Program-made: the position numbers and the translations under genes
The notes under the pieces: model-generated
What the model saw: the letters and a program-made list of their open reading frames with translations, nothing else
What the model was told of the DNA's origin: nothing
Database searches by the model: none
Part shown: positions 1 to 31,357 of the stretch, piece after piece
Position numbering within the stretch: position 1 is the first letter of the stretch
Layout of the letters: every line of letters begins with the position of its first letter
NCBI GenBank assembly: GCA_000934665.2
Contig: JYFJ02007101.1
Location: forward strand, 1-33,686
Direction: 5' to 3'
Length of the DNA stretch: 33,686 nt
Origin: Catajapyx aquilonaris
Taxonomy: Eukaryota

Positions 1-396
1 TGTCCACTTCAATCTTCCTCCATTTATTTGTTCCAAGTACAAAATAGTTTGGAAGATGTAACAAAAATCTCTGGACTAGTATAAAGAACATATGTTTGTG
101 GCCAACTATCGGGTCATACTTTCCACAGTACTTGCACCACACCTGCATGGTCCGGCATGTGCTGCTGCAAAACTGATTTTTCAGTGAAGCCTTTCTTACA
201 CAGTATTCACACAACAGCATGCACTTTGGCATGCACTGCCATGTGCTTGTCCAATCCCTGCTTGTGCGCAAACCCTTTGTGTGCAGGAGAAGGGCCTTTC
301 TCCCGTGTGAGTTCGCATGTGGACAACCATGTTCGACTTTAATGTAAACCCCTTTCCACACACAGTGCAAGAAAAGGGTCTTTCTCCGGTGTGAGT

Positions 397-1557
397 TCAC
401 ATGTGCCGGTCCAAGTGGTACTTTTGTCCAAACACGTTTCCACACTCAGTGCACAAAAAGGGTTTTTCTCCAGTGTGAGTTCGCATGTGCTGGTCCAAGT
501 GGCACTTTTGTCCAAACCCCTTTCCGCACTCCGGGCAAGAAAAGGGTTTTCCACTCGTATGAGTTCCCATATGCTGGTCCAAGTTGCACTTTTGTCTAAA
601 CCCTTTTCTGCATACAGTACATGAAAAGAGCGCTTCTCCAGTGTGAGAAAACATGTGTCTATCCAATAGGCACTTTTGCTCAAATGTCTTAGCACATACC
701 CTGCAAGAGTATGTGTGGGTTTTCATATGCTTCCCCAACAGGTCCTTTCGATAGAAGCCCCTATTGCAGACGTCACAAAAATATTTCCTTTCACCGTGCA
801 CCTCACTGTGCAGAGTCAAATTCCTTTTATACTTGAATGATTTCTCGCAGATCATGCACTGGTGTGGTCCTTCATTTGGGTGGACCCTCCTGTGATACCC
901 TAATTGGCGACCAGTTTTAAACAACTTCAAGCATACGTTACAAGAAAAGACTTTCTGATTTACATTATTGCTCTCGTCATTGTCCAAACACTGTGATTCT
1001 TCAGGTGCTGGGAATCCAGAAGGCAGCCCTCCTGCGGCATCTATTCCAGTTGGCGGTTCACCCTCCTGAAAGAAGCCAACATATTGTATATTAGAACACA
1101 CTGCTGTACGACCTCATAGTCTTTCATTTCTGTGCACATGCATGACTCTTTAAGATGCGATTCAGTTTAAACAACTTCAGGCATACCTGACATGAAAACT
1201 CTTCCTGATCGTATGAGTTGTGTTGCACATTCAGCACTGTCTCATGCTCCATCTTGACAAACAGCTGCTCTTCCATGCTGTTGCTTCCTTCTTGCGGATA
1301 CTCCTGTAAATATCAGTCATGTACTGTACGCAGTTATTCGCATGCAAAAATGAATGCCACAAGTCCTTCCTTCACACCTCAATAATGAAGACGGCTATGA
1401 ATTTGCATGAGTCGTTGGGATTGTCATTATTAGTTATTATAAAAATGCTGATGAACAGTATTGTCTTGGCTTGTTCATTAACTAAGATCATAGGACAGAA
1501 ATGTAAGATTTTTTACAAAAGTAGAGAGGCTGTGAAAGTCCCACACCAATCAAGCAA

Positions 1558-1631
<74 letters not shown>

Positions 1632-3887
1632 TTAATATTAATAATAATAGATACCCCATTATCAGCCCTTTAGGCTTTATTAGGGGGGGATTTTTCCCAA
1701 TTTTTTTGTCTGGAACTCTCCATTTTTACTATACTTTTCATCGGAATTGAGGCAAGGATAGGTAAGGAAGGAAGCGGCTGTGGCCTATAATTACGGTAAC
1801 GACCCCGGAATTATCCTGCGGTGACCATGGGAAACCACAGAAAACCATGATCAGGGTTGCCGGCCTCCGGGATTCGAACCCAGGACCTCCCTATTAGCAG
1901 TCGGACACAATACCACTACACCCCTACTGCTTCGGTTCAATCAAGCAAATATATTTTTTCCTAATCACTTGTGCAAATGAAAATGATTAGGCATATAAAA
2001 AACGTCTTGTAATAGTAATTAGAGCGGAAATCATTGCTAATAATATTTGTTGCAAATGTACGAAGACTGTCTTATTCAACGAGCTACTGCGCAAACATAA
2101 GTTTACCGTATTTGACGGCATATAAGACGCACCCCCACTTCAGTAGATCATATACAGGAAAATAAAAGTTCTTAAGTGTATTTTCCCATATAAGATGCAA
2201 GGTCATTTCTTGAGCAATTTATTGGGGGGAATAGTGTCTCTCATATGACTTCAAATATGGTAATTAAAATTGTAGTGGGCATCTTGCCAGTTAATAAAAA
2301 TAATTGACGGCTCTGCCAGCCATCGGGGCGTATTTATCAATCGTGAAATTAACACCCTGCACTTCTATGCACTGTAAATAGAGGAAAATAACTGTGCTAC
2401 AAAAATATTATTAGCAACAAATTGTAATTTTAACAAGCTGATAATAATTGGACACTAATTTCTCTCATGACCAATCAATGTCCAATCGAACAAGGAAGTA
2501 AATTTCCCAATCAGTTCTGAAGAGGACATAAATTTTCACAAAATAAAAGCAGCATGCTCATATTCACCTTGGCGGTAATTCCTTGGCTCACTTTAAGAAG
2601 TCCTCCTGGTGGTTGTTGCTCCGAGATACTGTCACCTGTTTTCATGGCAGTGCTGGAAGAAGGCTGGCTCGGTTCATGCACTGGCACCAGAGGCGTCAAA
2701 CCCTCTTCCTATGAAAGGTTAAAGTAAAATATATTTTCGACAACACATGCTTCAAGCCCCTATAACATTTACCTAACGGGGTAAATGCATGCTGTAATAC
2801 ACTTTTCACATGTGAAATTGCCTCCCCTTTTCAACAAAAAATGTTCATTTTCCGATCGCTGTGCAAGTCACTGGTAAAAAGCGAGATTTTTGCAAACAAA
2901 TGTAATTTCCAAATGAGGGCCAAAGTCAAATGCCATCACATTGACATCAAAATGCGATCCAAAGTGTCCTCTCCCTGCGATACAAATGACATTTCGGAAG
3001 GAATTATAAGAAGTCGGTGTCAAATTACGGAAGAAAATAGTAGACTACGGAGGTGTGTATTCCGAGGCGAAACTCGGGGGTATAAAGGACTCTCAAGATG
3101 TGCTTGTTGCCAGTGCGTCACACTTTGCAGACAAATTCTAAACGCAAGCAATCTAAGCAGATCATCCTCCCAAACCAGATTGTACCTGATGCGAAGAGAC
3201 TTCATGATATTCCCAGGATGGTTGGAAACCCGCACTCTCTTCCTCCCAGTCCTCCTGCGAAAATAAGCATCGCAGTGTCTGATATCACGTTATACCTAAG
3301 GTGACGCACAATTTACCTCGCCATGAGGCTGTTGCTTAACAGTGGTGTCGTCAGGGATGGCCTGCTCCTCCTCCGCAGCCTGTTGCGACTCCCACTGGTC
3401 CTCAACCTCCACTTTGACGCAACTCACCGGCACTTCTTCTTGCGGCTGTTCTGCCGGCAACTCCTGACAGTGAGCTTCACTTGCAGGCGGCTCTGGAATT
3501 GAGCGGCACAGCGTTGATCCTACGCAGTGCAAACGGGACATATCAATGGAACCCTTTCGCTAATGCGCTTGTGTTGCTGTGAAGGGATGACCCACCGTCC
3601 CTCCCCGTGGCGTCTGCTGCTGTCCCACCACCAGCGGCGGCCTCCCTCCTCCTCCTCCGGCCGGCCATCCCTTCCCATGGTGGCCCTTCCCCCGCCCAGA
3701 GGAGGTCCTCCACCTTCCCCAGCAGCCTCCTCTCCATCTCCTCCATCCGGACCTCCATCTGGCCCAGCAGCTTCCAGGACACCTGGTCCCACCTGGACAC
3801 CAGCCCTTCCAGGAGGAGCCTGTTCCCCTCCACCGCGCCCAGCACCAGCCCCACACTGCCGACCATCTCCTGCTGGCCCATCTCCAT
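397..3887 (-). CDS. C2H2 ZnF gene unit A (about 496 aa), C-terminally truncated by a premature stop
   Basis: Exons 3887-3596, 3519-3317, 3254-3186, 2708-2568, 1303-1187, 1065-397, all GT..AG with compatible phases (1,0,0,0,0). Six intact fingers. CGA>TGA at 399-397 breaks finger 7, finger 8 follows in frame, and finger 9 has an 8-nt deletion near 280. Confidence 0.75.
1563..1937 (-). mobile_element. tRNA-derived SINE with (ATT)n tail and 16-bp TSD
   Basis: Minus-strand head has A-box-like GGTGTAGTGG and B box GGTTCGAATCCC. (AAT)n tail at about 1563-1648. TSD CAATCAAGCAAATATA at 1547-1562 and 1938-1953. Paralogous empty site at about 24124. Confidence 0.92.
2106..2260. mobile_element. pogo/Tigger-like MITE, ancestral to the duplications
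   Basis: TA-flanked imperfect TIRs, CCGTATTTGACGGCATATAAGACGCAC ... consensus GTCTTATATGCCGTCAAATACGG. Confidence 0.75.
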
Positions 3888-4048
3888 CCCTCTCAATTAG
3901 TATAATGCCCTAATTAATAATAATTAGCCGATTAATTAATAGCTCCTGGAACTGGAGAAGAGAGAGAAAATGTCTGGAGATATCACTAGTTCAATGAGTT
4001 GCCGAGTGGGGGCAGCACGTGACATTCAGGGTTTGGCCTATCCAAATT

Positions 4049-4090
4049 GGACCAAAGATGGCGGACAGTGTATGCCGCCATGTTTGGTCC
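4049..4090. promoter_or_regulatory. Inverted repeat containing two YY1/Pho-like motifs upstream of E1 (unit A)
   Basis: GGACCAAAGATGGCGG-N10-CCGCCATGTTTGGTCC, repeated at the same position in units C, E and G. Regulatory role is inferred. Confidence 0.5.
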
Positions 4091-4312
4091 AGAACTTAAA
4101 ATGAAACTTCCAGAGAACAAGCCTTGCTGTCCACTTCAATCTTCTTCAATTTATTTGTTCCAAGTTACCAAGTACAAAATAGTTTGGAAGATGTAACAAA
4201 TATCTCTTGACTGGTATAAAGAACATATGTTTGTGGCCAACTATCGGGTCATACTTTCCACAGTCCTTGCATCACACCCGCATGGTCCTGCACGTGCTGC
4301 TGTAAAACTGAT

Positions 4313-4999
4313 TTAAGCCGGATCTTTGGCATGCACTGCCATGTGCCTGTCCAGTACCTGCTGGTACGCAAACCGTTTGCAGCACATTGTGCAGGAGAAG
4401 GGCCTTTCTCCCGTGTGAGTTCGCATGTGGACAACCATGTTCGACTTTAATGTAAACCCTTTTCCACACTCCGTGCACGAAAAGGGTTTTTCTCCAGTGT
4501 GAGTTCGCATGTGCCGGTCCAAGCCATACTTTTGTCTAAACCCTTTTCTGCATACAGTACATGAAAACACTACAATGTGAGAAAACATGTGGCTTTCCAA
4601 TTGGCACTTTTGCTCAAATGTCTTAGCACATACCCTGCAAGAGTATGTGTGGGTTTTCAAATGCCTCCCCAACAGGTCCTTTCGATAGAAGCCCTGATTG
4701 CACACGTCACAAAAATATTTCCTTTCGCAGTGCACCTTGCTGTGCAGAGTCAAATTCTTCTTATACTTGAATAATTTGTTGCAGATCATGCACTGGTGTG
4801 GTCCTTCATTTGCGTGGAGCCTCATGTGAGACTTCAATTGGCGATCAGTTTTAAACAACTTCAGGCATACGTTACAAGAAAAGACTTTCTGATTTACATG
4901 AGCGCTCTCGTCATTGTCCAAACGGTGTGCTTCTTCAGGTGCTGAGAATCCAGAAGGCAGCCCTCCTGTGGTATTGATTCCAGTTGGCGGTTCATCCTC
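4313..4999 (-). CDS. Orphan ZnF exon B (7 fingers) with no E1-E5 of its own
   Basis: Open frame from acceptor TTCTTTCAG|GAG at 4999. Homology upstream ends at about 5050, followed by unrelated DNA and then the 3' end of unit C. Confidence 0.65.
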   Translation of the reverse strand, partial: EDEPPTGINTTGGLPSGFSAPEEAHRLDNDESAHVNQKVFSCNVCLKLFKTDRQLKSHMRLHANEGPHQCMICNKLFKYKKNLTLHSKVHCERKYFCDVCNQGFYRKDLLGRHLKTHTYSCRVCAKTFEQKCQLESHMFSHIVVFSCTVCRKGFRQKYGLDRHMRTHTGEKPFSCTECGKGFTLKSNMVVHMRTHTGERPFSCTMCCKRFAYQQVLDRHMAVHAKDPA

Positions 5000-5600
5000 C
5001 TGAAAGAAGCCAACATGCTGTATATTAGAATAACACGCTGCTGTACGACTGACTCTCTTCCATAGCCTAAGATACCGCATTAATAAAACCGGACACAAGA
5101 CAAGGTCCAAAAGCCAGCGTAGGGGCAGGGCCAATGACAGGAGCAAAAAATTGATCGCAGCAGGCGAATTTTTGGGGGTTAAGCTTCAAGGCCACACAAG
5201 CCTCGGTGAATTTTCGTTTAAGTTTTGTACATCCCCCCCATGCCCCTCCTAACATCGTCGATGAACTTCATTGTCGCATCGATCCTGTCCGCAGCGGCCA
5301 GGAGTGGTTCTGTATTACTGTTGGATGGCCGTGGTTCAAACCCTGTCCCCGCCACCTCTGCTTGTCCTGGTCTTTTTCCACTTTTCTCCCGACATGCCGG
5401 CGCCGAATACAACTTAAAATGAAACTTCCAATGTACAATCTTCAATTTATTTGTTCCAAGTGCAAAATAGTTTTGGTAAGACCACAGATGATTGTGGTTA
5501 CAAAAATGACACTGCCGCTGCCCTAGTACAAAAATAAATAAATTGAGGTCATTGGAAGTTTATCCAGAAAGTACATTTTCAATTGTCTACGTACACTATA

Positions 5601-6213: not shown

Positions 6214-8723
6214 TCACACAAAAGCCGGATCTTTGGCATGCACTGCCATGTGCCTGTCCAATACATGCTTGCGCGGAAACCCTTTGCAGCACAGCTTACA
6301 AGAAAAGGGCCTTTCTCCCGTGTGAGTTCGCATGTGGGCAACCAAGTTGCACTTTAATGTAAACCACTTTCCACACTCCGCGCAAGAAAAGGGTTTTTCT
6401 CCAGTGTGAGTTCGCATGTGCTGGTCCAAGTCAGACTTGCATCTAACCCCCTTTCCACACTCAGTGCACGAAAAGGGCCTTTCTCCCGTATGAATTTGCT
6501 TGTGGACGACCAAGCTGGACTTTAGTCTAAACCCTTTTCTGCATACAGTACATGAAAACAGCACTTCTCCAGTGTGAGAAGACATGTGGCTTTCCAATTG
6601 GCACTTTTGCTCAAACGTCTTTTCACATACCCTGCAAGAGTACCTGTGGGTTTTCAAATGCGTCCCCAACAGGTCCTTTCGAAAGAAGCCCTTATTGCAC
6701 ACGTCACAAAAAAAATTCCTTTCACCGTGCATCATGCTGTGCTTAGTCAAATTCTTTTTATACTTGAAAGATTTCTCGCACACCGTGCACTGGTGTGGTC
6801 CTTCATTTGCGTGGGGCCTCATGTGAGACTTCAATTGGCGATCAGTTTTAAACAACTTCAAGCATATGTTACAAGAAAAGACTCTCTCATTTACATTAGC
6901 ACTCTCGTGATTGTCCAATCGCTGTGCTTCTTCAGGTGCTGAGAATCCAGAAGGCAGCCCTCCTGCGACATCGGTTCCAGTTGGCGGTTCATCCTCCTGA
7001 AAGAAGCCAACATACTGCATATTAGACCACACTGCTGTACGACTACGTACAGTCTTTCATTTGTGTGCAGCTGCATGACTCTTTAATATGCGATTAAGTT
7101 TAAACAACTTCAGGCATACCTGACATGAAAACTCTTCCTGATCGTTTGAGTTGTGTTGCCCATTCAGCACTGTCTCATGCTCCATCTTGACAAAGAGCTG
7201 CTCATCCATGCTGCTTCCTTCTAGCGGATCCTCCTGAAAATATCAGTCATGTACTGTACGCAGTTATTCGCATGCAAAAGTGAATCCCACAAAAGTCCTT
7301 CCTTCACACCTCAATAATGAAGACGGCTACGAATTTGCATCCTTCTGTATGAGTCGTTGGTATTGTCATTACTAGTTATTATAAAAATGCTGACAAACAG
7401 AATTGTCTTGGCTTGTTGATTAACTAAGGTCATAAGACCGAAATGTAAGATTTTTTTACAAAAGCAGAGAGGCTGCGAAAGTCCCACGCCATTCAAGCAA
7501 ATATTTTTTACAAATCAAGTACGCAAATGAAAATGATTTGGCATATAAAAAACGTCTCGTAACAGTCATTAGAGTGGAAATTATTGCTAATAATATTTGT
7601 TGCAAAAGTACGAAGACTGTCTTATTCGACGAGCTACTGTGCAAACATTAATTTACAGTATTTTACGGCATATAAGACGTACGCCCACTTCAGCAGTTCA
7701 TATTCACGGGAAAAAAAAGTGTATTTTCGCACATAAGATGCAAGCCGATTTTTTGGGCAATTTCTTGGGGGAAAAGTGTAATTTCCAAATGGGGTCCAAA
7801 GTGTCCTCTATCTGCGATACAAACGACATTTTGGAAGGAATTATTAGACGTCGGTGTCAAATTACGGATGAAAATAGTAGACTATGGAGGTGTGATTTCA
7901 GAGGCAAAACTCAGGGGTAGAAAGGACTCCTTCAGGAATATATGTGCTTTGTTGCCAGTGCGTCATGCATTCCAGACTAATTCTTAACGCAAGCCGTCTT
8001 AGCAGATCATGCTCGCAAACCAGATTGTACCTGATGCGAAGAGACTTCATGATATTCCCAGGATGGTTGGAAACCCGCACTCTCTTCCTCCCAGTCCTCC
8101 TGCGAAAAGAAGCATCGCAGTGTCTGATATCACGTTATACCTAAGGTGACGCACAATTTACCTCGCCATGAGGCTGTTGCTTAACAGTGGTGTCGCCAGG
8201 GATGGCCTGCTCCTCCTCCGCAGCCTGTTGCGACTCCCACTGGTCCTCAACCTCCACTTTGACGCATCTCACCGGCACTTCTTCTTGCGGCGGTTCTGCC
8301 GGCAACTCCTGACAGTGCGCTTCACATGCAGGCGGCTCTGGAATTGAGCGGCACAGCGTTGATCCTACGCAATGCAAAGAGTACATATCAATGGAACCCT
8401 TGCGCTAAGGTGTTGAAGGGAGACCCACCGTCCCTCATCCCCGTGGCGTCTGCTGCTGTCCCACCACCAGCGGCGGCCTCCCTCCTCCTCCTCCGTCCGG
8501 CCATCCCTTCCCATGGTGGCCCTTCCCCCGCCCGGAGGAGGTCCTCCAGCTTCCCCAGCAGCCTCCTCTCCATCTCCTCCATCCGGACCTCCATCTGGCC
8601 CAGCAGCTTCCAGGACACCTGGTCCCACCTGGACACCAGCCCTTCCAGGAGGAGCCTGTTCCCCTCCACCGCGCCCAGCACCAGCCCCACACTGCCGACC
8701 ATCTCCTGCTGGCCCATCTCCAT
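6214..8723 (-). CDS. C2H2 ZnF gene unit C (about 487 aa, 8 fingers), intact, lacks E4
   Basis: Exons 8723-8429, 8364-8162, 8099-8031, 7233-7120, 6996-6214. E4 was removed by a deletion with junction near 7775; the frame is kept because the exons are phase 0. Confidence 0.8.
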
Positions 8724-13035: not shown

Positions 13036-15645
13036 TAATTAAAATTGCAGTGGGCATCGTTGCCAGATATTCAAACTAATTGATGGCTCTGCCAGCCATC
13101 AGGGCATATTTATCAATAGTGAACTTAACAACCTGCATTTCTAACGATGCCATAGATTTGCACGAAATAAAATCAGTATGCGCATAATATTCACCTTGGC
13201 TGTAATTACTTGGCTCACGTTAAGAAGTGCTCCTGGTGGTTGTTGCTCCGAGATTTGCATGGCAGTGCTGCAAGAAGGCTGGCTCCACTCTTCATGCCCT
13301 GGCACCAGAGGCGTCGAGCCCTCTTCCTACGAAAGGTTAACGTAAAATATATATTCGACAACACGTGCTTCAAGAGCTTGTTCCCAGTGCGTCATGCTTT
13401 GCAGACTAATTCTGGACGCAAGGAGATCATGGTCGCAAACTAGATTGTACCTGATGCGAAGAGACATCATGAGCTTCCCAGGACGGTTGGAGCACGTGAT
13501 CCTCACCCGCACTCTCTTCCTTCCAGTCCTCCTGTGACAAGAAGTATCGTAGTGTCTGATATCACGTTATACCTAAGGTGACGCACAATTTACCTCGCCA
13601 TGAGGCTGTTGCTTAACAGTGGTGTCGCCAGGGATGGCCTGCTCCTCCTCCGCAGCCTGTTGCGACTCCCACTGGTCCTCAACCTCCACTTTGACGCACC
13701 TCACCAGCACTTCTTCTTGCGGCGGTTCTTCCGGCAACTCCTGACAGTGCGCTTCACATGCAGGCGGCTCTGGAATTGAGCGGCACAGCGTTGATCCTAC
13801 AAAGTGCAAACGGGACATATCAATGGAACCCTTGCGCTAATGCGCTTGTGTTGCTGTGAAGGGATGACCCACCGTCCCTCCCCGTGGCGTCTGCTGCTGT
13901 CCCACCACCACCAGCGGCGGCCTCCCTCCTCCTCCGGCCGGCCATCCCTTCCCATGGTGGCCCTTCCCCCGCCCGGAGGAGGTCCTCCATCTTCCCCAGC
14001 AGCCTCCTCTCCATCTCCTCCATCCGGACCTCCATCTGGCCCAGCAGCTTCCAGGACACCTGGTCCCACCTGGACACCAGCCCTTCCAGGAGGAGCCTGT
14101 TCCCCTCCACCGCGCCCAGCACCAGCCCCACACTGCCGACCATCTCCTGCTGGCCCATCGTCTCCATCCCTCTCAATTAGTATAACGCCCTAATTAATAA
14201 TTATAGCCAATTAATTAGCAGCTCCTGGAGAAGAGAGAGAGAGAGAAAATGTCTGGAGATTTCACTAGTTCATTGAATTCAAACTGTCCTTTTCATTTAT
14301 TTAATTATACTTCATCATCATTTACTTCACGGCATAAATCCCGTGTACATGGGTAGCCAGCGGAGTCCAGGTTACAGGTGACAATTGCAATTATTGCACA
14401 TCATGACGTCATTTACTCAACTAACACGTACATGAAATAATTCTCCAATTGTACGATTGCTGATTAATTCCAGTTTCATTCCAAAGAACAAGCCTTGCTG
14501 TATACTGCAATCATCTTCAATTTATTTGTTCCAAGTACAAAATAGTTTTGGTCCGACCACGGATCATTGTGGTTACGAAAATGACACTGCCGCTGCCCAA
14601 GTAGAAAATTAAATAAATTGAGGGCATTGGAAGTTCATCCAGAGAGTACGTTTTCAATTATTGTCTACGTACATTCTAGTCGCATACAACCCCAGCAGTG
14701 TATCCGAAGTGCAGCAAAAGATTTAATGATCTTCAAAAATGAGAGAACTGCGACTTTAAAAAAGACAATAATGAATCTGAGAAAATGCAATGCTGCTCAT
14801 TGTCACGCAGAATACGAAAATGTTCTGTCGCAATTTTAAAAAAAACCTTTAAAGTTTAATAGATCAAACAGACACAAATTATAATACTTTTTAACGTGAT
14901 TGGCAAAAAAAACCTGATGTGATTTGACTCAAGTGCAGCCTGCACTTGAGTCAAATGCAAAATCGTCTCTGTTTGTGAGTGATATAGTACATGTGTACCT
15001 GCTGCAAGATGTATCCAGTTCGATTTCATACTGCACATGATTTTTTAGAATCTGGCATTACATGAGTGCATGATTTTAATAATAAATATATCAGAAGTTT
15101 TCGATCAACTGCATGAATCAACATGGACGGAAACATTGGTTTTTAAGAACTTATGATGAACCCATCAAATGTTTCATCCAAACACGTTTTCCGAGCAGCT
15201 GATGTGACAGAATTAGAAACAACAAAAACGCAAAAAGAGCAGATAATATTGCGTGCTACATACAATACCAATTGTAGACACTGTTTTTAAAAACCAAGGA
15301 TATTCTTTTGAAAAGTTGCAACTACTGCGCAGAGGCATCTCCCGCAACATTGGGGAATATGAGTCAACGCGGAGGAGTTTAAATGCTGGACTCGGAGAAG
15401 TTCTGTGCCAATGACTTCATTACTTCCCTCGAGAGCATTTAGCATGTTCAATCAAGGTGGAAAAAAACTTGAAACATATGGCACTTGGAAGACGTAACAA
15501 AAATCTCTGACTGGTTTGAAGAACATACGTATGTGGCCAACTATGAATCGGGTCATACTTTCCACAGTCCTTGCACCACATAAAGGTGGTCCAGCAAGTG
15601 ATGCTGCAAATAGGACTTTTCATTGAAACGTTTCTTACACAGTAT

Positions 15646-17796: not shown

Positions 17797-20700
17797 TCAC
17801 ACAAAAGCCAGATCTTTGGCATGCACTGCCATGTGCCTGTCCAATCCATGCTTGTGCGCAAACCCCTTGCAGCACACCTTACAAGAAAAGGGCCTTTCTC
17901 CCGTGTGAGTTCGCATGTGACGGTCCAAGCCATACTTGCTTCTAAACCCCTTTCCACACTCAGTGCACGAAAAGGGTTTTACTCTCGAATGAGTTCCCGT
18001 GTGCTGGTCCAAGTGGCACTTTTGTCTAAACCCTTTTCTGCATACAGTACATGAAAACAGCGCTTCTCCAGTGTGAGAAGACATGTGGCTATCCAATAGG
18101 CACTTTTGCTCAAACGTCATTTCACATACCCTGCAAGAGTATGTGTGGGTTTTCTTATGCTTCCCCAACAGGTCCTTACGATAGAAGCCCTGACTGCACA
18201 CATCACAAAAAAAATTCCTTTCGCCGTGCACCGCGCTGTGAAGAGTCAAATTCTTTTTACGCTTGAAAGATTTCTCGCATATCATGCACTGGTGTGGTCC
18301 TTCATTTGGGTGGACCCGCATGCGAGACCTTAATTCGCAACCAGTTTCAAACAACTTCAAGCATACGTTACAAGAAAAGACTTTCTGATTTACATTAGTC
18401 CTCTCGTCATTGTCCAAATGGTGTGCTTCTTCAGGTGCTGGGAATCCATAAGGCAGCCCTCCTGCGGTATTGATTCCAGTTGGCGGTTCATCCTCCTGAA
18501 AGAAGCCAACATACTGTATATTAGAACACACTGCTCTACAACTATGTATAGTCTTTCATTTGTGTGCAGCTGAGGGGGAGGCACGGTGGCCGAGATGGTA
18601 ACGTCTCGGCTTGCTATGCGAAAGGTCCCGGGATCAAATCCCCACCCGGGAGCAAACATTTCGCTTGCATCAATGGGTCGTGACCCGCGCCTAAGGAGGC
18701 GTCTTGGCAACCTGACCTCCTGGGGGGACTGCACCTGGCCCACCGCTGGACAATGCACCTGCACATGTGTCCCCTCCCCAAACCCTCCAACCCTTACCCC
18801 ATTTCCTAGTATTCTTTGCACCGGAGTCCGAAGATAAATACCAAGAAAACTGTATGGTGGTCTGCCACCTGCTTTCCGACTACATAGAGTCTTTCATGCA
18901 TGACTCTTTAAGATGCGATTAAGTTTAAACAACTTCAGGCATACCTGATATGAAAACTCTTCCTGATCGTATGAGTTGTGTTGCATATTCAGTACTCTCT
19001 CATTCTCCATCATGCCAAATAGCTGCTCTTCCATGCTGCTTCCTTCTTGCGGATACTCCTGAAAATATCAGTCATGTACAGTACACGGTCAATCGCATGC
19101 AAAAATGAATGCCACAAGTCCTTCCTTCACACCTCAATAATGAAGATGCCTATGAATTTGCATCCTTCTGTATGAGTCGTTGGCAATGTCATTATTTTAT
19201 TATAAAAATCCTGATTAACAGTACTGTCTTGGCTTGTTCATTAACAAAGGTTCTGAAGAAGCCATAAATTTGCACACACAAAAAAAAGCAGTCATGTGCA
19301 TATTCACCTTGGCTGTAATTACTTCGCTCACGTTAAGAAGCGCTCCTGGTGGTTGTTGCTCCGAGAAACTGTCGGCTGTTTGCATGGCAGTGCTACAAGA
19401 AGGCAGGCTCTCTTCATGCCCTGGCACCAGAGGCATCGAACCCGCTTCCTACGAAAAGTTAAAGTAAAATATATTTTCGACAACACGTGCTTCAAGAGCT
19501 AATTTGTCTTATTCTTAAGAGTCCTCTACAACCTGAGAAAGCTTTTTCCCCTTCTGGATTCCAAATTTTGAAGCTATCCAGGGTTCACAGGGGGAATTTT
19601 TTGGCCTCCGAGAAGTGTCAAAAAAAAATTCATTTTGCTACGTAACATCGGCAACTACTCAAAAAATGACAGTTTTCCTTGTTCTTCTTGCAATAAAAAT
19701 TACACAATGAAGATAGGTACACAACTCGCATATATGTTACCGATATTTCAACAAGCTTCTTATGATCAATACAGTTATTTTTTGGAGCATTTTCCTGGAA
19801 GTTATTTAGAGTCAAACACAAGGGTCATTATTTTAAAAAATGGATAGTAGGCAGTTGTCTATAGAGCGGCAGATTTCAAGGGTCAGTGCCATTCGAAAGA
19901 GACTCTCTGACTCCTTCGGCACTGCTTCTTACCAATTTAAAATAATTTTGCTTACCATCGCGCTGAGAGCAGGCTTTAAAAATCCAGATTTCGTTAAATT
20001 TCTGAATTTTTATTGGCCAAAATAATAGATATTTTAAAAAACTGACAAGCAGCGATGACAGAGGGACATCTTCTAAGCTTATAACAATTTTTATATTAGA
20101 AGTCGGTGTCAAATTACGGAAGAAAATAGTAGACCACGAGGTGTGTTTTCAGAGGTGAAACTCGGGGGTATAAAGGACTCTTAAGTAATATGTGCTTGTT
20201 GCCAGTGCGTCAAACTTTGTAGACAAATTCTAAACACAAGCAGTTCATGCTCGCAAACTAGATTGTACCTGATGCGAAGTGCCATCATGAGATTCCCAGG
20301 ATGGTTGGCGAACATGATTCTCACCCGCACTCTTTTCCTCCCAGTCCTCCTGCGAAAAGAAGCATCGTAGTGTCTGATATCACGTTATACCTAAGGTGAC
20401 GCACAATTTACCTCGCCATGAGGCTGTTGCTTAACAGTGGTGTCGTCAGGGATGGCCTGCTCCTCCTCCGCAGCCTGTTGCGACTCCCACTGGTCCTCAA
20501 CCTCCACTTTGACGCACCTCACCAGCACTTCTTCTTGCGGCGGTTCTTCCGGCAACTCCTGACAGTGCGCTTCACATGCAGGCGGCTCTGGAATTGAGCT
20601 GTACAGCGTTGATCCTACGAAGTGCAAAGAGTACATATCAATGGAACCCTTGCGCTTGTGTTGCTGTGAAGGGATGACCCACCGTCCCTCATCCCCGTGG

Positions 20701-20980
20701 CGTCTGCTGCTGTCCCACCACCAGCGGCGGCCTCCCTCCTCCTCCTCCGGCCGGCCATCCCTTCCCATGGTGGCCCTTCCCCCGCCCAGAGGAGGTCCTC
20801 CAGCTTCCCCAGCAGCCTCCTCTCCATCTCCTCCATCCGGACCTCCATCTGGCCCAGCAGCTTCCAGGACACCTGGTCCCACCTGGACACCAGCCCTTCC
20901 AGGAGGAGCCTGTTCCCCTCCGCCGCGCCCAGCACCAGCCCCACACTGCCGACCATCTCCTCCTGGCCCATCATCTCCAT
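17797..20980 (-). CDS. C2H2 ZnF gene unit E (about 511 aa, 7 fingers; finger 1 has His>Arg), all six exons open
   Basis: Exons 20980-20683, 20614-20412, 20349-20269, 19448-19308, 19058-18945, 18495-17797, with canonical splice sites and phases. Confidence 0.8.
18573..18876 (+). mobile_element. tRNA-derived SINE (second family), apparently 3'-truncated, in intron 5 of unit E
   Basis: A box TGGCCGAGATGG at 18587-18598 and B-box-like GGATCAAATCC at 18631-18641. Absent from paralogous introns. No tail seen. Confidence 0.75.
19519..20180. mobile_element. TTAA-flanked non-autonomous DNA transposon (Kolobok-like) in intron 3 of unit E
   Basis: TTAA|GAGTCCT ... GGGTATAAAGGACTC|TTAA, with TTAA at 19515-19518 and 20181-20184. 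Termini start with purines. Confidence 0.65.
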
Positions 20981-22861: not shown

Positions 22862-25741
22862 TCACACAAAAGCAGGATCTTTGGCATGCACTGCCATGTG
22901 CCTGTCCAATACATGCTTGCGCGGAAACCCTTTGCAGCACACGATGCAGGAAAAGGGTGTTTCTCCCGTGTGAGTTTGCATGTGCCGGTCCAAGTCATAC
23001 TTGCTTCTAAACCCCTTTCTACACTCAGTGCACGAAAATGGTTTTTCTCCCGTGTGAGTTCGCATGTGCTGGTCCAAGTGGCACTGTCGTTTAAACCCCC
23101 TTCCACACTCCAGGCACAAAAAGGGTTTTTCTCCGGTATGAGTTCGCATGTGCTTGTTCAAGTCTGACTTTTGTCTAGACCCTTTTCCACACACCGTACA
23201 TGAAAACAGCACTTCTCCAGCAGTGTGAGAAAACATGTGGCTATCCAATTGGCACTTTTGCTCAAACGTCATTTCACATACCCTGCAAGAGTATGTGTGG
23301 GTTTTCAAATGATTCTCAAACAGTTCCTTTCGATAGAAGCCCGGATTGCACACGTCACAAAAAAATTTCCTTTCACCGTGCACCTTGCTGTGCAGAGATA
23401 AATTCCTTTTATACTTGACAGATTTGTTGCCGATCATGCACTGGTGTGGTCCTTCATTTGCGTGGACCCACATGTGAGACTTTAATTGGCAACCCGTTTT
23501 AAACAACTTCAAGCATATGTTACAAGAAAAGACTTTCTCATTTACATTATTGCTCTCTGGATTGTCCAACCACCGTGCTTCTTCAGGTGCGGAGAATCCA
23601 GAAGGCAGCCCTCCTGTGGCATCGATTCCAGTTGGCGGTTCATCCTCCCGAAAGAAGCCAACATACTGTATATTAGACCACATTGCTTTACGACTAAGAG
23701 TCTTTCATGCATGACTCTTTAAGATGCGATTAAGTTTAAACAACTTCAGGCATACCTGACATGAAAAATCTTCCTGATCGTATGAGTTGTGTTGCACATT
23801 CAGCACTACGTCAGGCTCCATCATGACAAAGGGCTGCTCTTCCATGCTGCTTCCTTCTTGCGGATCCTCCTGAAAATATCAGTCATGTACTGTATGCAGT
23901 TATTAGCATGCAAACATGAATGCCACAAGTCCTTCCTTCACACCTCAATAATGAAGACGGCTACGAATTTGCCTCCTTCTGTATGAGTCGTTGGTATTGT
24001 CATTATTAGTTATTATAAAAATGCTGACAAACATAATTGTCTTGGCTTGTTGATTTACTAAGGTCATAAGAGCGAAATGTAAGATTTTTTTACAAAAGCA
24101 GAGAGGCTGTGAAAGTCCCACGCCAATCAAGCAAATATATTTTTACAAATCACCTGTGCAAATCAATATGATTTGGCATATAAAAAACGTCTGGTAACAG
24201 TAACTAGTGCAGAAATTATTGTTAATAATATTTGTTGCAAAAGTACGAAGACTGTCTCATTCGACGAGCTACTGTGCAAACATTAATTTACGGTATTTGA
24301 CGGCATATAAGACGCTCCCCCACTTCAGCAGTTCATATTCAGGAAAAAAAAAAAGTTCTTAAGTGTATTTTCCCACATAAGATGCAAGCCAATTTTTTGG
24401 GCAATTTTTTGGGGGGAAAAGTGTGTCTTATATGCCATCAAATATGGTAATTAAAATTACAGCGAACAGTAACTATACATATTGGGCATCATTGCCAGAT
24501 AATAAAAATAACTAATGTCTCTGCCAGCGTATTTATCAATCGTGAAGTTAACAACCTGCATTTCTAGGCACTGTAAATAGAGGAAATTAACTGTGCTGCA
24601 AATATTATTAGCAACCAATTGTAATTTTGAGAAGCTGATAAATGGTCACTATAATTTTAGCTGATGACCAATCAGTGTCCAATCGAACAAGGAAGTAAAT
24701 TTCCCAAGCATTTCTAACAAGCCCATAAATTTGCATGGAATAAAATCAGTATATTCACCTTGTATGTAATTCCTTGGCTCACGTTAAGAAGTCCTCCTGG
24801 TGGTTGTTGCTCCAAGATATTGTCGCCTGTTTGCATGGCAGTGCTGCAAGAAGGCTGGCTCTCTTCATTCCCTGGCACCGGAGGCGTCCAGCCCGGAACC
24901 TGCGAAAGGTTAACGTAAAATATATTTTTGACAACACGTGCTTCAAGAGCTTGTTGCCAGTGCTTCATGCTTTGCAGACTAATTCTAAACGCAGGCAGAT
25001 CATGCTCGCAAACCAGATTGTACCTGATGCGAAGTGCAATCGGGAGATTTCCAGGACGGTTGGCAAACATGATTCTCACTCGCACTCTCTTCCTCCCAGT
25101 CCTCCTGCGAAAATGAGCATCGTAGTGTCTGACTGATGTAAAATTATACAAACGTGACGCACAATTTACCTCGCCATGAGGCTGTTGCTTAACAGTGGTG
25201 TCGCCAGGGATGGCCTGCTCCTCCTCCGCAGCCTGTTGCGACTCCCACTGGTCCTCAACCTCCACTTTGACGCACCTCACCAGCACTTCTTCTTGCGGCT
25301 GTTCTGCCGGCAACTCCTGACAGTGAGCTTCACTTGCAGGCGGCTCTGGAATTGAGCTGTACAGCGTTGATCCTACTCAATGCAAAGAGTACATGTCAAT
25401 GCAAGGCTTTCTTTAATGCGCTTGTGTTGAAGGGATGACCCACCGTCCCTCATCCCCGTGGCGTCTGCTGCTGTCCCACCACCAGCGGCGGCCTCCCTCC
25501 TCCTCCTCCGGCCGGCCATCCCTTCCCATGGTGGCCCTTCCCCCGCCCAGAGGAGGTCCTCCAGCTTCCCCAGCAGCCTCCTCTCCATCTCCTCCATCCG
25601 GACCTCCATCTGGCCCAGCAGCTTCCAGGACACCTGGTCCCACCTGGACACCAGCCCTTCCAGGAGGAGCCTGTTCCCCTCCACCGCGCCCAGCACCAGC
25701 CCCACACTGCCGACCATCTCCTGCTGGCCCATCGTCTCCAT
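22862..25741 (-). CDS. C2H2 ZnF gene unit F (8 fingers; finger 2 has Cys>Gly), possibly pseudogenising
   Basis: Exons 25741-25444, 25372-25170, 25104-25024, 24899-24759, 23869-23756 and 23647-22862 are all open. The E6 acceptor is CGG instead of CAG (23650-23648), and the upstream conserved block is replaced from about 25795. Confidence 0.6.
24291..24447. mobile_element. pogo/Tigger-like MITE copy
   Basis: TA|CGGTATTTGACGGCATATAAGACGC ... GTGTCTTATATGCCATCAAATATGG|TA. Confidence 0.75.
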
Positions 25742-28044: not shown

Positions 28045-31000
28045 TCACACAAGAGCCAGATCTCTGGCATGCACTGCCATGTGACTGTTCAATACATGCT
28101 TGTACGCAAACCCTTTGCAGCACACCTTACAAGAAAGGGGCCTTTCTCCCGTGTGAGTTCGCATGTGGACAACCAAGTTCGACTTTTCTGTAAACCCCTT
28201 CCCACACTCAGTGCAAGAGAAGGGTTTTTCTCCAGTGTGAGTTCGCATGTGCTTGTCCAAGTGAGACTTGCACGTAAACCTCTTTCCGCACTCAGTGCAT
28301 GAAGAGGGTTTTACACTCGTATGAGTTCGCATGTGCTGGTCCAAGTTGGACTTTCGTCTAAACCTTTTCCCACATACAGTAGAAGAAAAAGGCACTTCTC
28401 CAGTGTGAGAAGACATGTGGCTTTCCAATAGGCACTTTTGCTCAAACGTCTTTGCACATACCCTGCAAGAGTATGTGTGGGTTTTCAAATGCCTCCCCAA
28501 CAGGTCCTTTCGATAGAAGCCCCTATTGCAGACGTCACAAAAATATTTCCTTTCACCGTGCACCTCACTGTGCAGAGTCAAATTCCTTTTATACTTGAAT
28601 GATTTCTCGCAGATCATGCACTGGTGTGGTCCTTCATTTGGGTGGACCCTCCTGTGCCACTTCAATTGGCGATCAGTTTTAAACAACTTCAGGCATACGT
28701 TACAAGAAAAGACTTTCTCATTTACATTAGCACTCTCGTGATTGTCCAACCGCTGTGCTTCTTCATGTGCTGAGAATCTATAAGGCAGCCCTCCTGCAGT
28801 ATAGATTCCAGTTGGCGGCTCATCCTCCTGAAAGAAGCCAACATACTACATATTAGATCACACTGCTGTACGACTACATAGAGTCTTTCATGCATGACTT
28901 TTTAAGATGCGATTCAGTTTAAACAACTTCAGGCATACCTGACATGAAAACTCTTCCTGATCGTATGAGTTGTGTTGCACATTCAGCACTGTCTCATGCT
29001 CCATCTTGACAAACAGCTGCTCTTCCATGCTGTTGCTTCCTTCTTGCGGATCCTCCTGAAAATATCAGTCATGAACAGTACGCACTCATCCGCATGCAAA
29101 AGTGAATGCCACAAACGTCCTTCCTTCACACCTCAATAATGAAGACGGCTATGAATTTACATCCTTCTGTATGAGTCGTTGGCAATGTCATTATTTTATT
29201 ATAAAATTACTGATGAACAGTATTGTCTTGGCTTGTTGATTAACAAAGGTCATAAGACCGAAAGGTAAGATTTTTTACAAAAGCAGAGAGGCTGTGAAAC
29301 TCCCATGACAATCGAGCAAAAAATTTTTACAAATCACCTGCGAAAATGAAAATGATTTGGCATTTAATAAATTTGGCATTTAATAAATGTCTGGGTAACA
29401 GTAATGAGAGCGAAAATTATTGCTAATAATATTTGTTGCAAAAGTACTAAGACTGTCTAATTCGACGAGCTTGATTGAATATGTGCAAATATTAATTTGA
29501 AGTATTTGACGGCACATAAGAAGCATCCCCATTTCAGCAGGGCATATTCAGGGAAAAAAAGTTCTTGCGTTAGTATATTTTCGCATATAAGAAGCAGGGC
29601 GATTTCTTGAGCAATTATGAACTCGAGTGCTTGAGCATGTATGATTCGCTATTATGCTCGCTTCCTACGAAAGGTTAACGTAAAATATATTTTCGACAAC
29701 ACATGCTTCTAGAGCTAATTTGTCTTATTCTTAAGAGTCCTTTCTACCCAGACAGCCTGAGAAAGCTGACTTTTTCCCCCTCTGGATTCCAAATTCGAAG
29801 CTATCCAGTGTTCACAGGGGAAATTATTTGGCCTCCGAGAAGTGTAAAAAAAAAATCATTTTGCCGCATAACGTAGGCAACTACTCAAAAAATGACACTT
29901 TCCTGTGTTCTTGCGATAAAATTTACACAATGAAGATAGGCAAACAACTCGCATATCTGTTACCGTGATTTACACAAGCTTCTAACGATGAATAAGGTTA
30001 TTTTTTGGAGCATTTTCCTGGAAGTTATTTAGTCAAACATAGGGGTCAATATTTTTAAAAATGGATAGTAGGCAGTTGTCTATAGAGCGGCAGATTTCAA
30101 GGGGCGGCAAATTGAGTGGGAGATATGTTTGAGTCCGGGTCAAGTTAGGCCATTTCCCATAAGGATTTGCTCTGCTGATGTGTGGTTGCCTATCTACAGA
30201 TGCTACTTGTAATTTTATCAGATTTACGGGCTATTACATATCCCTAATGGCGTAAATGCATGATGTAATACTTGTTTCAAATGTGAAATTGCCTGCCCTT
30301 TTCGGCAAAAAAAATTTCATTTTTTAACAGCTGCACAAATCACTGGTAAAAAGTGATATTTTTGCAAACAAATGTAATTTCAAAATGAGAGCCAAAGTCA
30401 AATGGCATCACATTGGCATCAAAATGCGGTCCAAAGTGTCCTCTACCTGTGATACAAACGACATTTTGGAAGGAATTATTAGAAGTCGGTGTCAAATTAC
30501 GGAAGAAAATTGTAGACTACAGAGGTCTGTTTTCCGAGGCGAAACTCGGGGGTAGAAAGGACACTTTATGTAATACATGTGCTTGTTGCCAGTGCGTCAT
30601 GCTTTCCAGACTAATTCTAAACGCAAGCCGTCTTAGCAGATCATGCTCGCAAACCAGATTGTACCTGATGCGACGAGACATCATGAGATCCCCAGGATGG
30701 TTGGAGCATATGATCCTCACCCGCACTCTCTTCCTTCCAGTCCTCCTGTGACAAGAAGTATCGTAGTGTCTGATATCACGTTATACCTAAGGTGACGCAC
30801 AATTTACCTCGCCATGAGGCTGTTGCTTAACAGTGGTGTCGGCAGAGATGTACTGCTCCTCCTCCGCAGCCTGTTGCGACTCCCACTGGTCCTCAACCTC
30901 CACTTTGACGCACCTCACAGGCACTTCTTCTTGCGGCTGTTCTGCCGGCATCTCCTGACAGTGGGCTTCACATGCAGGCGGCTCTGGAATTGTGCGGTAC

Positions 31001-31357
31001 AGCGTTGATCCTACGCAGTGCAAACGGGACATATCAATTAAATGCGCTTGTGTTGCTGTGAAGGGACCCACCGTCCCTCCCCGTGGTGGCTGCTGTCCCA
31101 CCACCAGCGGCGGCCTCCCTCCTCCTCCTCCGGCCGGCCATCCCTTCCCATGGCGGCCCTTCCCCCCGGAGGAGGTCCTCCACCTTCTCCAGCAGCCTCC
31201 TCTCCATCTCCTCCATCCGGCCCTCCATCTGGCCCAGCAGCTTCCAGGACACCTGGTCCCACCTGGACACCAGCCCTTCCAGGAGGAGCCTGTTCCCCTC
31301 CACCGCGCCCAGCACCAGCCCCACACTGCCGACCATCTCCTCCTGGCCCATCTCCAT
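28045..31357 (-). CDS. C2H2 ZnF gene unit G (about 489 aa if the E4 remnant is skipped; 8 fingers; finger 5 has Cys>Ser)
   Basis: Exons 31357-31072, 31010-30808, 30745-30665, 29055-28939, 28827-28045. Only the acceptor and first codons of E4 remain, at 29664. Confidence 0.75.
29735..30564. mobile_element. Kolobok-like element, longest copy (intron 3 of unit G)
   Basis: TTAA|GAGTCCTTTCTACCC ... GGGTAGAAAGGACAC|TTTA; 14/15 TIR match. Right-end remnants in unit A (to 3092) and unit C (to about 7929). Confidence 0.65.

What the first reader, a model, noticed from the sequence alone, without database searches (positions are those of the whole stretch)
3596..3887. Unassigned, nearly invariant helical/coiled-coil N-terminal domain
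EMVGSVGLVLGAVEGNRLLLEGLVSRWDQVSWKLLGQMEVRMEEMERRLLGK(V/L/M)EDLL differs by only a few residues across six copies (3887, 8723, 14167, 20980, 25741, 31357), and the E1 indels keep the frame. It has no Cys (so not ZAD) and no BTB, KRAB or SCAN motif that I recognise. Hydrophobic periodicity suggests an amphipathic helix or coiled coil, followed by an Arg run (possible NLS). An oligomerisation or co-repressor-binding role is inference.
Basis: partly seen in the sequence, partly recalled or inferred. Interest (0 to 1): 0.75.

Follow-up and report, generated by a model that had tools for sequence, protein, structure and literature searches.

The report
Uncatalogued N-terminal helix of zinc-finger genes
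Six neighbouring zinc-finger genes start with an almost identical exon that encodes a long helix unlike any catalogued protein domain, and the copies stay alike mainly because they keep overwriting one another, so their sameness alone does not show that the helix is functionally important.

Summary
Six minus-strand copies of a 286-298 nt first exon start at the stated ATGs. They have no Cys, an Arg run, and only 3-nt indels.

The exon is probably coding.
- Its first 64 codons have GC 0.70/0.31/0.97 by codon position (0 of 20000 shuffles match this).
- It splices in phase through five exons into 449-493 aa zinc-finger ORFs in five of six units.
- No RNA covers exon 1.

No known family fits.
- Pfam gives only a sub-threshold HSBP1 hit.
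- phmmer against 1.84 billion proteins gives 0 hits.
- PDB, Foldseek and the ESM Atlas give nothing.
- It is unrelated to the common teleost ZNF N-terminus.

AlphaFold2 predicts one helix over residues 2-64, but heptad and amphipathicity tests are not significant.

- Core pS is 0.000, against 0.09-0.17 elsewhere in the same genes.
- All six variable codons change the amino acid.
- 318 of 595 site pairs fail the four-gamete test.

The best reading is concerted evolution by short-tract, GC-biased gene conversion, acting on a real lineage-restricted ZNF head domain. Its role as an interaction or effector module is inferred only.

The parts
3596..3887 (-). Exon 1 of unit c1. Codons 1-64 (3696-3887) encode the predicted helix. 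Positions 3596-3695 encode a Gly/Pro break, a short helix with the Arg run, and a low-complexity tail. The GT donor lies at 3595-3594 (phase 1).
8429..8723 (-). Exon 1 of unit c2.
13873..14167 (-). Exon 1 of unit c3. This unit has exons 1-3 only (exon 2 at 13594-13796, exon 3 at 13451-13531). No exon 4 or zinc-finger exon follows.
20683..20980 (-). Exon 1 of unit c4.
25444..25741 (-). Exon 1 of unit c5.
31072..31357 (-). Exon 1 of unit c6, the most divergent copy (V47G, G58E, two 3-nt deletions).
3520..3595 (-). Intron 1 of c1, 76 nt (61-76 nt across the six units). It shows 12-13% substitutions plus indels of 3, 5, 8, 12 and 12 nt.
3317..3519 (-). Exon 2 of c1, 203 nt in all six units. It is acidic, with an invariant VKVEVED-type core and a GTAAAT donor (phase 0).
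3186..3254 (-). Exon 3 of c1, 69 nt (81 nt in c3-c6). Its donor is used in contigs of run X5.
1187..1303 (-). Exon 4 of c1, 117 nt, with a second acidic VKME-type box. It holds an in-frame Met that is the start codon in the rival model.
397..1065 (-). Zinc-finger exon of c1, with 6 C2H2 motifs. It ends early at the stop at 397-399, not at the family's usual C-terminus.
6214..8364 (-). Unit c2 downstream exons: exon 2 at 8162-8364, exon 3 at 8031-8099, exon 4 at 7120-7233, zinc-finger exon at 6214-6996. The in-silico ORF is 487 aa.
17797..20614 (-). Unit c4 downstream exons: exon 2 at 20412-20614, exon 3 at 20269-20349, exon 4 at 18945-19058, zinc-finger exon at 17797-18495. The in-silico ORF is 464 aa.
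22862..25372 (-). Unit c5 downstream exons: exon 2 at 25170-25372, exon 3 at 25024-25104, exon 4 at 23756-23869, zinc-finger exon at 22862-23647. The ORF is 493 aa, but the zinc-finger exon acceptor reads CGG instead of CAG.
28045..31010 (-). Unit c6 downstream exons: exon 2 at 30808-31010, exon 3 at 30665-30745, exon 4 at 28939-29055, zinc-finger exon at 28045-28827. The in-silico ORF is 489 aa.

Best explanation
The stretch is the first coding exon of a tandemly repeated, lineage-restricted family of C2H2 zinc-finger genes. Each gene has five exons: helix exon, acidic exon, short exon, second acidic exon, and finger array.

The exon encodes a helix of about 64 residues that is rich in hydrophobic residues and free of Cys and Pro. 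It has a GxxxGxxxG stretch near its start. A break follows, then a short helix carrying an Arg run, then a disordered linker. It belongs to no catalogued domain family.

The near-identity of the six copies is produced mainly at the DNA level. Short-tract, GC-biased gene conversion among the paralogues keeps overwriting the exon. This has driven third codon positions to 97% G/C and erased all synonymous differences. Selection on the protein keeps second positions A/T-rich and keeps the frame. (Shown: the homogenisation, the mosaicism and the composition. Inferred: the GC bias as the cause.)

The inferred function is a shared protein-protein interaction head, by analogy with KRAB, SCAN, ZAD and FiNZ. 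A 60-residue helix with 28 of 63 large hydrophobic residues cannot stay exposed. It must pack against itself, against sister paralogues or against a common cofactor. The Arg run plausibly serves nuclear import. These functional steps are not shown.
For: Coding and frame:
- GC by codon position in codons 1-64 is 0.70/0.31/0.97. 62 of 64 codons end in G or C, and 0 of 20000 shuffles reach this periodicity.
- Intron 1, intron 3 and the 5' flank show no periodicity (17491, 9554 and 16219 of 20000 shuffles reach theirs). Exon 2 (4 of 20000) and exon 4 (41 of 20000) show it in the frame that the splice phases dictate.
- 5 of 5 exon indels are multiples of three, against 3 of 9 in the flanking non-coding DNA.
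- Joining the five exons in silico gives uninterrupted ORFs of 449-493 aa in 5 of the 5 units that have all five exons. 4 of these end at the family's usual C-terminus.
- Contigs of run X5 carry GT..AG-type skips joining exon 3 to exon 4 and exon 4 to the finger exon.

Gene conversion:
- Divergence is 0% at +62..+136 of the exon. It rises to 13% in intron 1 and about 40% further out.
- Core pS is 0.000 (0 observed, where 58-113 summed synonymous differences would be expected at the pS of 0.088-0.171 seen in exon 3 and the finger exon), with pN 0.016.
- All 6 variable codon columns in the core change the amino acid.
- 35 informative sites show 17 split patterns. 318 of 595 pairs are incompatible, and neighbouring sites agree more than permuted ones do (20 of 10000 permutations).
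- Exon 1 is pristine even in units that look broken: c3 has no finger exon, c5 has a lost acceptor, and c1 stops early.

Literature:
- Non-allelic conversion in humans has a mean tract of 250 bp and a strong GC bias (abstract of 10.1101/135152).
- Conversion confined to coding regions while non-coding DNA diverges is a described pattern. It is attributed to purifying selection keeping the homology that conversion needs (passage of PMC3924837).

No known family:
-.

Helix:
- AlphaFold2 predicts helices at 2-64 and 70-86, with mean pLDDT 83.6.
Against: - No RNA evidence covers exon 1 or the exon 1-exon 2 junction.
- One X5 contig that splices exon 3 to exon 4 runs unspliced through intron 2 (window 3185-3345). 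In c1-c4 and c6 this would end the exon-1 ORF at a TAG inside that intron.
- Between paralogues pN/pS is about 1 in exons 2 and 3 and the finger-exon leader (1.26, 0.90, 1.19). Paralogue comparison therefore gives no sign of purifying selection on the protein.
- The GC-bias argument rests on composition, not on polarised substitutions.
- The AlphaFold2 input was six near-identical sequences, and long single helices are easily over-predicted.
- Heptad and hydrophobic-moment tests are not significant.
- The organism is not identified, so 'lineage-restricted' rests on databases that lack this species. The best finger-exon hit is only 51% identical.
Confidence: 0.6

Rival explanations
1. Exons 1-3 are untranslated leader, or at most an upstream ORF. 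The zinc-finger protein starts at the conserved Met in exon 4, just before the acidic VKME box. The 'domain' is then not part of the finger protein.
For: - One X5 contig spliced from exon 3 to exon 4 keeps intron 2, which carries an in-frame TAG in five of six units.
- The exon-4 ATG is present in all six copies, with A at -3 and G at +4.
- pN/pS is about 1 in exons 2-3.
- All six frames of exon 1 are open, so the ORF itself proves nothing.
Against: - Strong period-3 composition in exon 1 (0 of 20000 shuffles) and exon 2 (4 of 20000), in exactly the frame linked by the phase-1 splice.
- 5 of 5 exon indels are multiples of three.
- All four junction phases are compatible in five units.
- A leader with seven in-frame ATGs before the real start would be unusual.
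Confidence: 0.13
2. The invariance, synonymous sites included, reflects a function of the DNA or RNA itself, not gene conversion. Examples would be a promoter-proximal element or a family-wide target for a regulatory RNA or protein.
For: - The zero-divergence core (+62..+136) is sharply bounded and lies within 300 nt of a conserved upstream block.
- pS is 0 while neighbouring introns diverge by 12-13%.
Against: - Mosaic site patterns show that sequence exchange does occur.
- GC3 of 0.97 beside GC2 of 0.31 is what a conversion bias acting on a coding frame predicts. A nucleic-acid element does not predict it.
- There is no Rfam family and no tandem repeat.
- Exon 2 shows a second, separate low-divergence valley.
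Confidence: 0.1
3. One reading: the copies are nearly invariant because strong purifying selection acts on an essential protein domain.
For: - Exons are less diverged than the adjacent introns.
- Frame-keeping indels.
- A/T-rich second codon positions are retained despite the G/C pressure.
Against: - Purifying selection on the protein leaves synonymous sites free, yet core pS is 0.000 where 58-113 summed differences are expected.
- All six variable codons in the core are amino-acid changing.
- Exon 1 is equally intact in units whose finger part is missing or damaged.
Confidence: 0.07
4. A 5' cassette (promoter plus exons 1-3) was copied very recently onto older zinc-finger exons, so exon 1 has simply had no time to diverge.
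For: - There are eight finger exons but only six exon-1 copies.
- The finger exons are more diverged than exon 1 (pS 0.09-0.17).
Against: Within the supposed cassette, divergence swings from 0% to 13%, back to 1.5-5%, then to 8-16% over 700 nt. The site patterns are mutually incompatible. One recent copying event cannot give this.
Confidence: 0.05

Closest known systems
FiNZ-ZNF genes of cyprinid fish (Wells et al. 2023, PMC10547256; passages read)
   Same: Both are large tandem C2H2 families. In both, a short, lineage-specific N-terminal sequence with no similarity to known domains sits on its own exon upstream of the finger exon. In FiNZ genes this sequence is conserved enough among paralogues that the authors report targeting more than 400 of these genes together in one morpholino knockdown.
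   Different: FiNZ is described as 28 residues, enriched in Glu, and encoded by the single exon directly before the finger exon, in cyprinids only. Here the head is a hydrophobic helix of about 64 residues (11 acidic, 7 basic and 28 large hydrophobic of 63). Three more short exons follow it, and two of them carry the acidic boxes. No FiNZ model was available to test similarity.
[quoted passage not shown]
   Same: The architecture is the same: an N-terminal effector exon or exons plus a rapidly evolving finger array, in tandem clusters. An analogous role as a recruiter of a common cofactor is plausible.
   Different: No KRAB (PF01352) match at E<=1. A single long helix is predicted, which to my recollection (no call) does not resemble the KRAB fold. 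No cofactor is known.
SCAN-domain ZNFs (Pfam PF02023)
   Same: SCAN is a Cys-free, helical N-terminal module on C2H2 proteins. Its role in pairing paralogues is recalled, not tested here.
   Different: No SCAN match at E<=1. From recall, SCAN is a multi-helix bundle of about 80 residues, whereas one continuous helix is predicted here. The dimer prediction gave no verdict.
The N-terminal helical region shared by many teleost ZNFs (for example P0022, P0023, P0027, P0094)
   Same: Both are uncatalogued: Pfam finds only fingers in P0022 and P0027. Both are Glu-rich and hydrophobic helix-like N-termini placed ahead of acidic boxes and a finger array.
   Different: Profile-profile comparison gives probability 0.2% over 5 columns. 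No relationship is detectable.
Concerted evolution of duplicated genes by gene conversion confined to coding regions (review PMC3924837, passages; Harpak et al., abstract)
   Same: Paralogues are identical at synonymous sites while the flanking non-coding DNA diverges. Mosaic patterns, short tracts and a GC bias are also shared.
   Different: Here the homogenised tract is a single 5' exon (with a weaker second valley in exon 2) of otherwise fast-diverging genes. The GC3 contrast within one gene is extreme (0.97 against 0.53).

Membership tests
KRAB (PF01352) | Match to the KRAB A/B box profile | tested here: not met
   hmmscan of exon 1 against Pfam-A at E<=1 lists only HSBP1. HMMER's filters drop most matches above E of about 0.1.
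SCAN (PF02023) | Match to the SCAN profile | tested here: not met
   Not listed at E<=1.
ZAD (PF07776) | Four zinc-binding Cys (recalled definition) and a match to the profile | tested here: not met
   No Cys in the 63-residue core and none in the six exon-1 translations aligned. No Pfam hit.
BTB/POZ and DUF3669 (Pfam accessions recalled as PF00651 and PF12417) | Match to the profiles | tested here: not met
   Not listed at E<=1.
HSBP1 (PF06825) | Score at or above the gathering threshold of 28.6 bits | tested here: not met
   15.7 bits, E 0.014, residues 39-62 only. This is a generic match between helical segments.
Canonical coiled coil | A sustained heptad with hydrophobic a/d positions, and amphipathicity above chance | tested here: inconclusive
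   The best register has 10 of 16 a/d positions hydrophobic, against 16 of 40 elsewhere. The hydrophobic moment of residues 22-64 is reached by 1207 of 5000 shuffles. The best PDB sequence hit is a lamin coil fragment at E 0.17.
FiNZ domain (Wells et al. 2023) | 28-residue Glu-rich N-terminal sequence on the exon directly before the finger exon, restricted to cyprinids | not testable with these tools
   No FiNZ profile or sequence was available; the paper's supplements were not opened. Length, composition and exon layout differ from the description read.
Common teleost ZNF N-terminal helix (unnamed) | Profile similarity to the first 75 residues of 13 fish ZNFs | tested here: not met
   hhalign probability 0.2%, 5 aligned columns.
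Retroelement ORF1 or gag coiled coils | Match to a Pfam ORF1/gag profile, or structural similarity | tested here: not met
   No such family at E<=1. Foldseek against the PDB gives no match with E<=0.001. Sequence-weak coiled coils could still escape both tests.
C2H2 zinc-finger gene (whole gene) | Tandem C2H2 fingers in the last exon, joined in frame to the exon in question | tested here: met
   zf-C2H2 E 5.8e-27 and zf-H2C2_2 E 1.5e-34 on the c1 finger exon. In-frame five-exon ORFs with 6-8 finger motifs. The exon 1-2 junction has no RNA support.

The most novel reading that the evidence does not exclude
The helix is a new class of zinc-finger-associated effector domain, this lineage's counterpart of KRAB, FiNZ or ZAD. 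It would dock all members of a fast-evolving, probably transposon-directed ZNF family onto one common silencing or assembly partner. The family would keep it interchangeable by gene conversion focused on that one exon.
Probability: 0.25. Interest if true: 0.7.

Novelty: new variant of a known kind. Interest (0 to 1): 0.4.

Why it matters
Tandem zinc-finger families with a lineage-specific head domain (KRAB, SCAN, ZAD, FiNZ) have arisen repeatedly, and the head domain decides what the family does. A further, unrelated head would add a case for asking how such families connect to the cell's chromatin machinery.

The more solid result is methodological. Identity among paralogues is not evidence of protein constraint. 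Here the synonymous sites, the mosaic site patterns and a 97% GC3 point to biased gene conversion. The evidence for a constrained coding sequence comes instead from codon-position composition and frame-keeping indels.

One 5' exon is frozen while the rest of the same genes diverges by 9-17% at silent sites. That contrast makes the locus a compact natural example of exon-focused concerted evolution.

Tried and rejected
- Homodimer prediction (residues 1-70, two copies): no verdict, score 0.02 against a mark of 0.32. This is evidence neither for nor against pairing.
- RNA support: no RNA holder is listed among 5 runs. Run X5 (kind unknown) has no cover over exon 1, so expression of exon 1 stays untested.
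- Foldseek of the model against the PDB: 1 row, E 9.6. A single long helix is a poor query, so the VIA-align libraries were not tried.
- ESM Atlas features: best score 0.84, within the noise range the tool states.
- The search for homologous proteins with longer lengths: 1453 candidates, none at E<=0.01.
- The whole genome of the window is not held.
- Earlier-findings look-ups by place (near, relatives) and by sequence: nothing.
- Tandem Repeats Finder on 3500-3950: 0 rows. Rfam on 1-9000: 0 matches.
- Considered and dropped: a signal peptide or membrane anchor for the hydrophobic residues 8-19. The stretch is too short and follows an acidic start (sequence only, no predictor run).
- Considered and dropped: an antisense gene. 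Its Pro-rich frames lack a start.
- I first assumed a fish genome. I withdrew that because the finger-exon hits are generic (45-51% identity to fish, frogs and some insects). The taxon stays open.
- Literature searches cannot search by sequence, so I cannot say that the domain is not in print.
Full report
**Observation.** The window is a tandem array of C2H2 zinc-finger genes on the minus strand.
- Each copy runs to a GT donor in phase 1, giving exons of 286-298 nt.
- nhmmer (E 1e-89 to 4e-98) and tblastn find these six copies and no others.
- The six translations are 95-99% identical to copy 1.
- The 63-residue core has no Cys or Pro. It has 28 large hydrophobic residues, 11 acidic, 7 basic and 8 Gly, including a GxxxGxxxG run at residues 13-21.
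- A run of five Arg (four in c3) follows the core.

**Gene model.**
- A 61-76 nt intron follows exon 1. Then comes a 203-nt acidic exon 2 with a GTAAAT donor, a 62-65 nt intron, and a 69- or 81-nt exon 3.
- Contigs of run X5, whose kind is not on record, carry skips whose ends are GT..AG on the minus strand. They join 3186 to about 1303 and 1187 to about 1065.
- These skips revealed a 114-117 nt exon 4 that I had missed. It is present in c1, c2, c4, c5, c6 and in the partial unit at the window's end.
- Joining the five exons in silico gives open frames of 449, 487, 464, 493 and 489 aa for c1, c2, c4, c5 and c6, with 6-8 finger motifs. Four of the five end at the family's usual C-terminus.
- Three units look damaged. 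c1 stops early. c5 has CGG where the finger-exon acceptor should read CAG. c3 has no exon 4 or finger exon at all.
- There are eight finger exons for six first exons.

**Is exon 1 coding?** An open frame means nothing here, because all six frames carry 0-2 stops. Three other lines of evidence do bear on the question.
- First, codons 1-64 have G+C of 0.70, 0.31 and 0.97 at positions 1, 2 and 3. Only 2 of 64 codons end in A or T, and 0 of 20000 shuffles reach this periodicity.
  - Exon 2 (4 of 20000) and exon 4 (41 of 20000) are periodic in the frames that the splice phases dictate.
  - Intron 1, intron 3 and the 5' flank are not periodic.
- Second, 5 of 5 gap runs in exons 1 and 3 are multiples of three, against 3 of 9 in the 5' flank and introns 1 and 2. 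By my arithmetic the hypergeometric chance of this is about 0.03.
- Third, all four junction phases agree in five units.

Against this, no RNA covers exon 1. In addition, one X5 contig that splices exon 3 to exon 4 runs straight through intron 2. That would end the exon-1 frame at a TAG in five of the six units. This keeps alive a rival model in which translation starts at the conserved Met of exon 4.

**Why the copies are nearly identical.**
- Divergence along the unit is about 40% far upstream, 13-14% in the last 60 nt before the ATG, and 0% at +62 to +136. It is 13% in intron 1, 1.5-5% in exon 2, 8-16% around intron 2 and exon 3, and about 40% beyond.
- Within the core, all six variable codon columns change the amino acid and none is synonymous.
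- By the Nei-Gojobori method the core has pS 0.000 and pN 0.016. The exon 1 tail has 0.056 and 0.033, exon 2 has 0.031 and 0.039, and exon 3 has 0.122 and 0.110. The finger-exon leader has 0.088 and 0.105, and finger-exon codons 45-144 have 0.171 and 0.137.
- With 44 synonymous sites per copy, 58-113 summed synonymous differences would be expected at the silent divergence seen in exon 3 and the finger exon. None is seen.
- The copies are also mosaics. 35 informative sites show 17 different split patterns among six sequences, and 318 of 595 pairs fail the four-gamete test. Neighbouring sites agree more often than permuted ones (20 of 10000 permutations).
- Exon 1 is as clean in the damaged units as in the intact ones.

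I read this as concerted evolution by short-tract gene conversion.
- The 97% GC3 inside a gene whose finger exon has GC3 0.53 and whose introns are 38-51% G+C fits the GC bias reported for non-allelic conversion. That work reports a mean tract of 250 bp (abstract of 10.1101/135152).
- At G/C-saturated silent sites, such a bias acts like purifying selection.
- Second positions have stayed 69% A/T under that pressure. This is the best sign here that the amino-acid sequence itself is under selection.
- A review describes the same contrast in other gene duplicates: conversion persists in coding regions while non-coding DNA escapes it. The review attributes this to purifying selection preserving the homology that conversion needs (PMC3924837, passage).

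**What the domain is.**
- Pfam gives a single sub-threshold hit: HSBP1, 15.7 bits against a cut-off of 28.6.
- phmmer against 1.84 billion cluster representatives gives 0 hits at E<=0.001. A word-seeded search of longer proteins gives none at E<=0.01.
- That collection does contain animal proteomes. The finger exon finds 3379 proteins at E<=1e-10, mostly fish and frog ZNFs plus some insects, but at only 45-51% identity among the best-scoring hits. This species and its close kin are therefore absent, and 'lineage-restricted' is provisional.
- Many of those fish proteins share their own uncatalogued N-terminal helix. A profile-profile comparison with it gives probability 0.2%.
- A PDB profile search gives a lamin coil fragment at E 0.17. 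Foldseek gives nothing, and the ESM Atlas gives scores within noise.
- AlphaFold2 on the six-sequence alignment predicts one helix over residues 2-64 (block means 93-98 for residues 11-60), a break, a helix at 70-86 that carries the Arg run, and a disordered tail.
The best heptad register has 10 of 16 a/d positions hydrophobic against 16 of 40 elsewhere, and 1207 of 5000 shuffles reach the moment of residues 22-64.
- It is safer to call it a long hydrophobic helix than a coiled coil.

**How it most likely works (inference).** A helix with 28 of 63 large hydrophobic residues cannot remain solvent-exposed. It must pack against itself, against the identical helices of sister paralogues, or against a shared partner. 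All paralogues carry the same head on different finger arrays. The simplest model is a common docking or assembly module, the role that KRAB, SCAN, ZAD and, by proposal, FiNZ play in other lineages (for KRAB and FiNZ; SCAN and ZAD from recall). The Arg run is a plausible nuclear import signal, and the acidic exons 2 and 4 resemble the acidic boxes of fish ZNFs seen. None of this was tested. The one dimer prediction gave no verdict (see Tried and rejected).

**Novelty and verdict.** The kind of thing is well known: a tandem C2H2 family with a lineage-specific N-terminal module kept uniform among paralogues. This particular module matches nothing catalogued, so I file it as a new variant of a known kind. 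Earlier notes of this scan report similar 'novel N-terminal helix' ZNF arrays elsewhere in the same genome. They are AI notes and not independent evidence, and sequence look-ups found no look-alike stretch among them. My two literature searches could not search by sequence, so I cannot say whether the domain is in print. Interest is moderate. The sharpest result is that the near-invariance is a DNA-level homogenisation signature and not a measure of protein constraint.

Noticed in passing
window 4049-4090 (minus strand), about 160-200 nt upstream of the c1 ATG: A 16-nt inverted repeat whose arms each contain an ATGGCGG core, 10 nt apart. It resembles a pair of YY1-type sites (motif recalled, not tested). 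The block is conserved in c1, c2, c4 and c6 and absent from c3 and c5 in the alignment. It is possibly the family's core promoter.
   Followed up: partly
window about 3935-3965 (minus strand), 50-80 nt upstream of the c1 ATG; same place in the other units: A (CT)n polypyrimidine run ending in CAG looks like a splice acceptor. 'Exon 1' may therefore be preceded by an untranslated exon. There is no RNA to test this.
   Followed up: no
window 4313-4999 and 15646-16599 (minus strand): Two complete zinc-finger exons with intact acceptors have no exons 1-4 of their own, which gives eight finger exons for six first exons.
   Followed up: no
window 1170-1190 (minus strand); exon 4 donor: The exon 4 donor lies inside a decayed zinc finger. 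Exon 4 ends with FSCQ, and the intron continues with a finger-like VCLKLFK...H sequence closely resembling the first finger of the finger exon. Exon 4 therefore seems to have been made from a partial duplicate of the start of the finger exon.
   Followed up: partly
window 23648-23650 and unit c5 generally: The finger-exon acceptor of c5 reads CGG instead of CAG, and one finger has Gly in place of its second Cys. The frame is still open for 493 aa. The gene is probably decaying, yet its exon 1 is pristine.
   Followed up: partly
window 8724-13872 (between the exon 1 copies of units c2 and c3): Unit c3 stops after exon 3. Downstream lie a second copy of the exon-3 region (12180-12360) and a frame-broken finger remnant (11716-12042). 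The unit is rearranged.
   Followed up: no
window about 1697-1950 (intron 3 of c1): This stretch has a summed contig depth of 7e4 to 3e5 in the DNA runs, against about 100-600 in most other bins. Loose ends there contain a tRNA-type box (GGGATTCGAACCC). It is a very high-copy tRNA-derived SINE.
   Followed up: no
P0022, P0023, P0027, P0094 and others (not in the window): Many teleost ZNFs share a conserved helical N-terminus of about 45 residues. Pfam does not cover it (only finger families hit P0022 and P0027), so a widespread fish ZNF head domain seems to be uncatalogued in Pfam.
   Followed up: partly
window about 22.2-22.4 kb: A single N sits inside a (GA)n microsatellite. It is the only ambiguous base of the window, probably an assembly uncertainty.
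   Followed up: no
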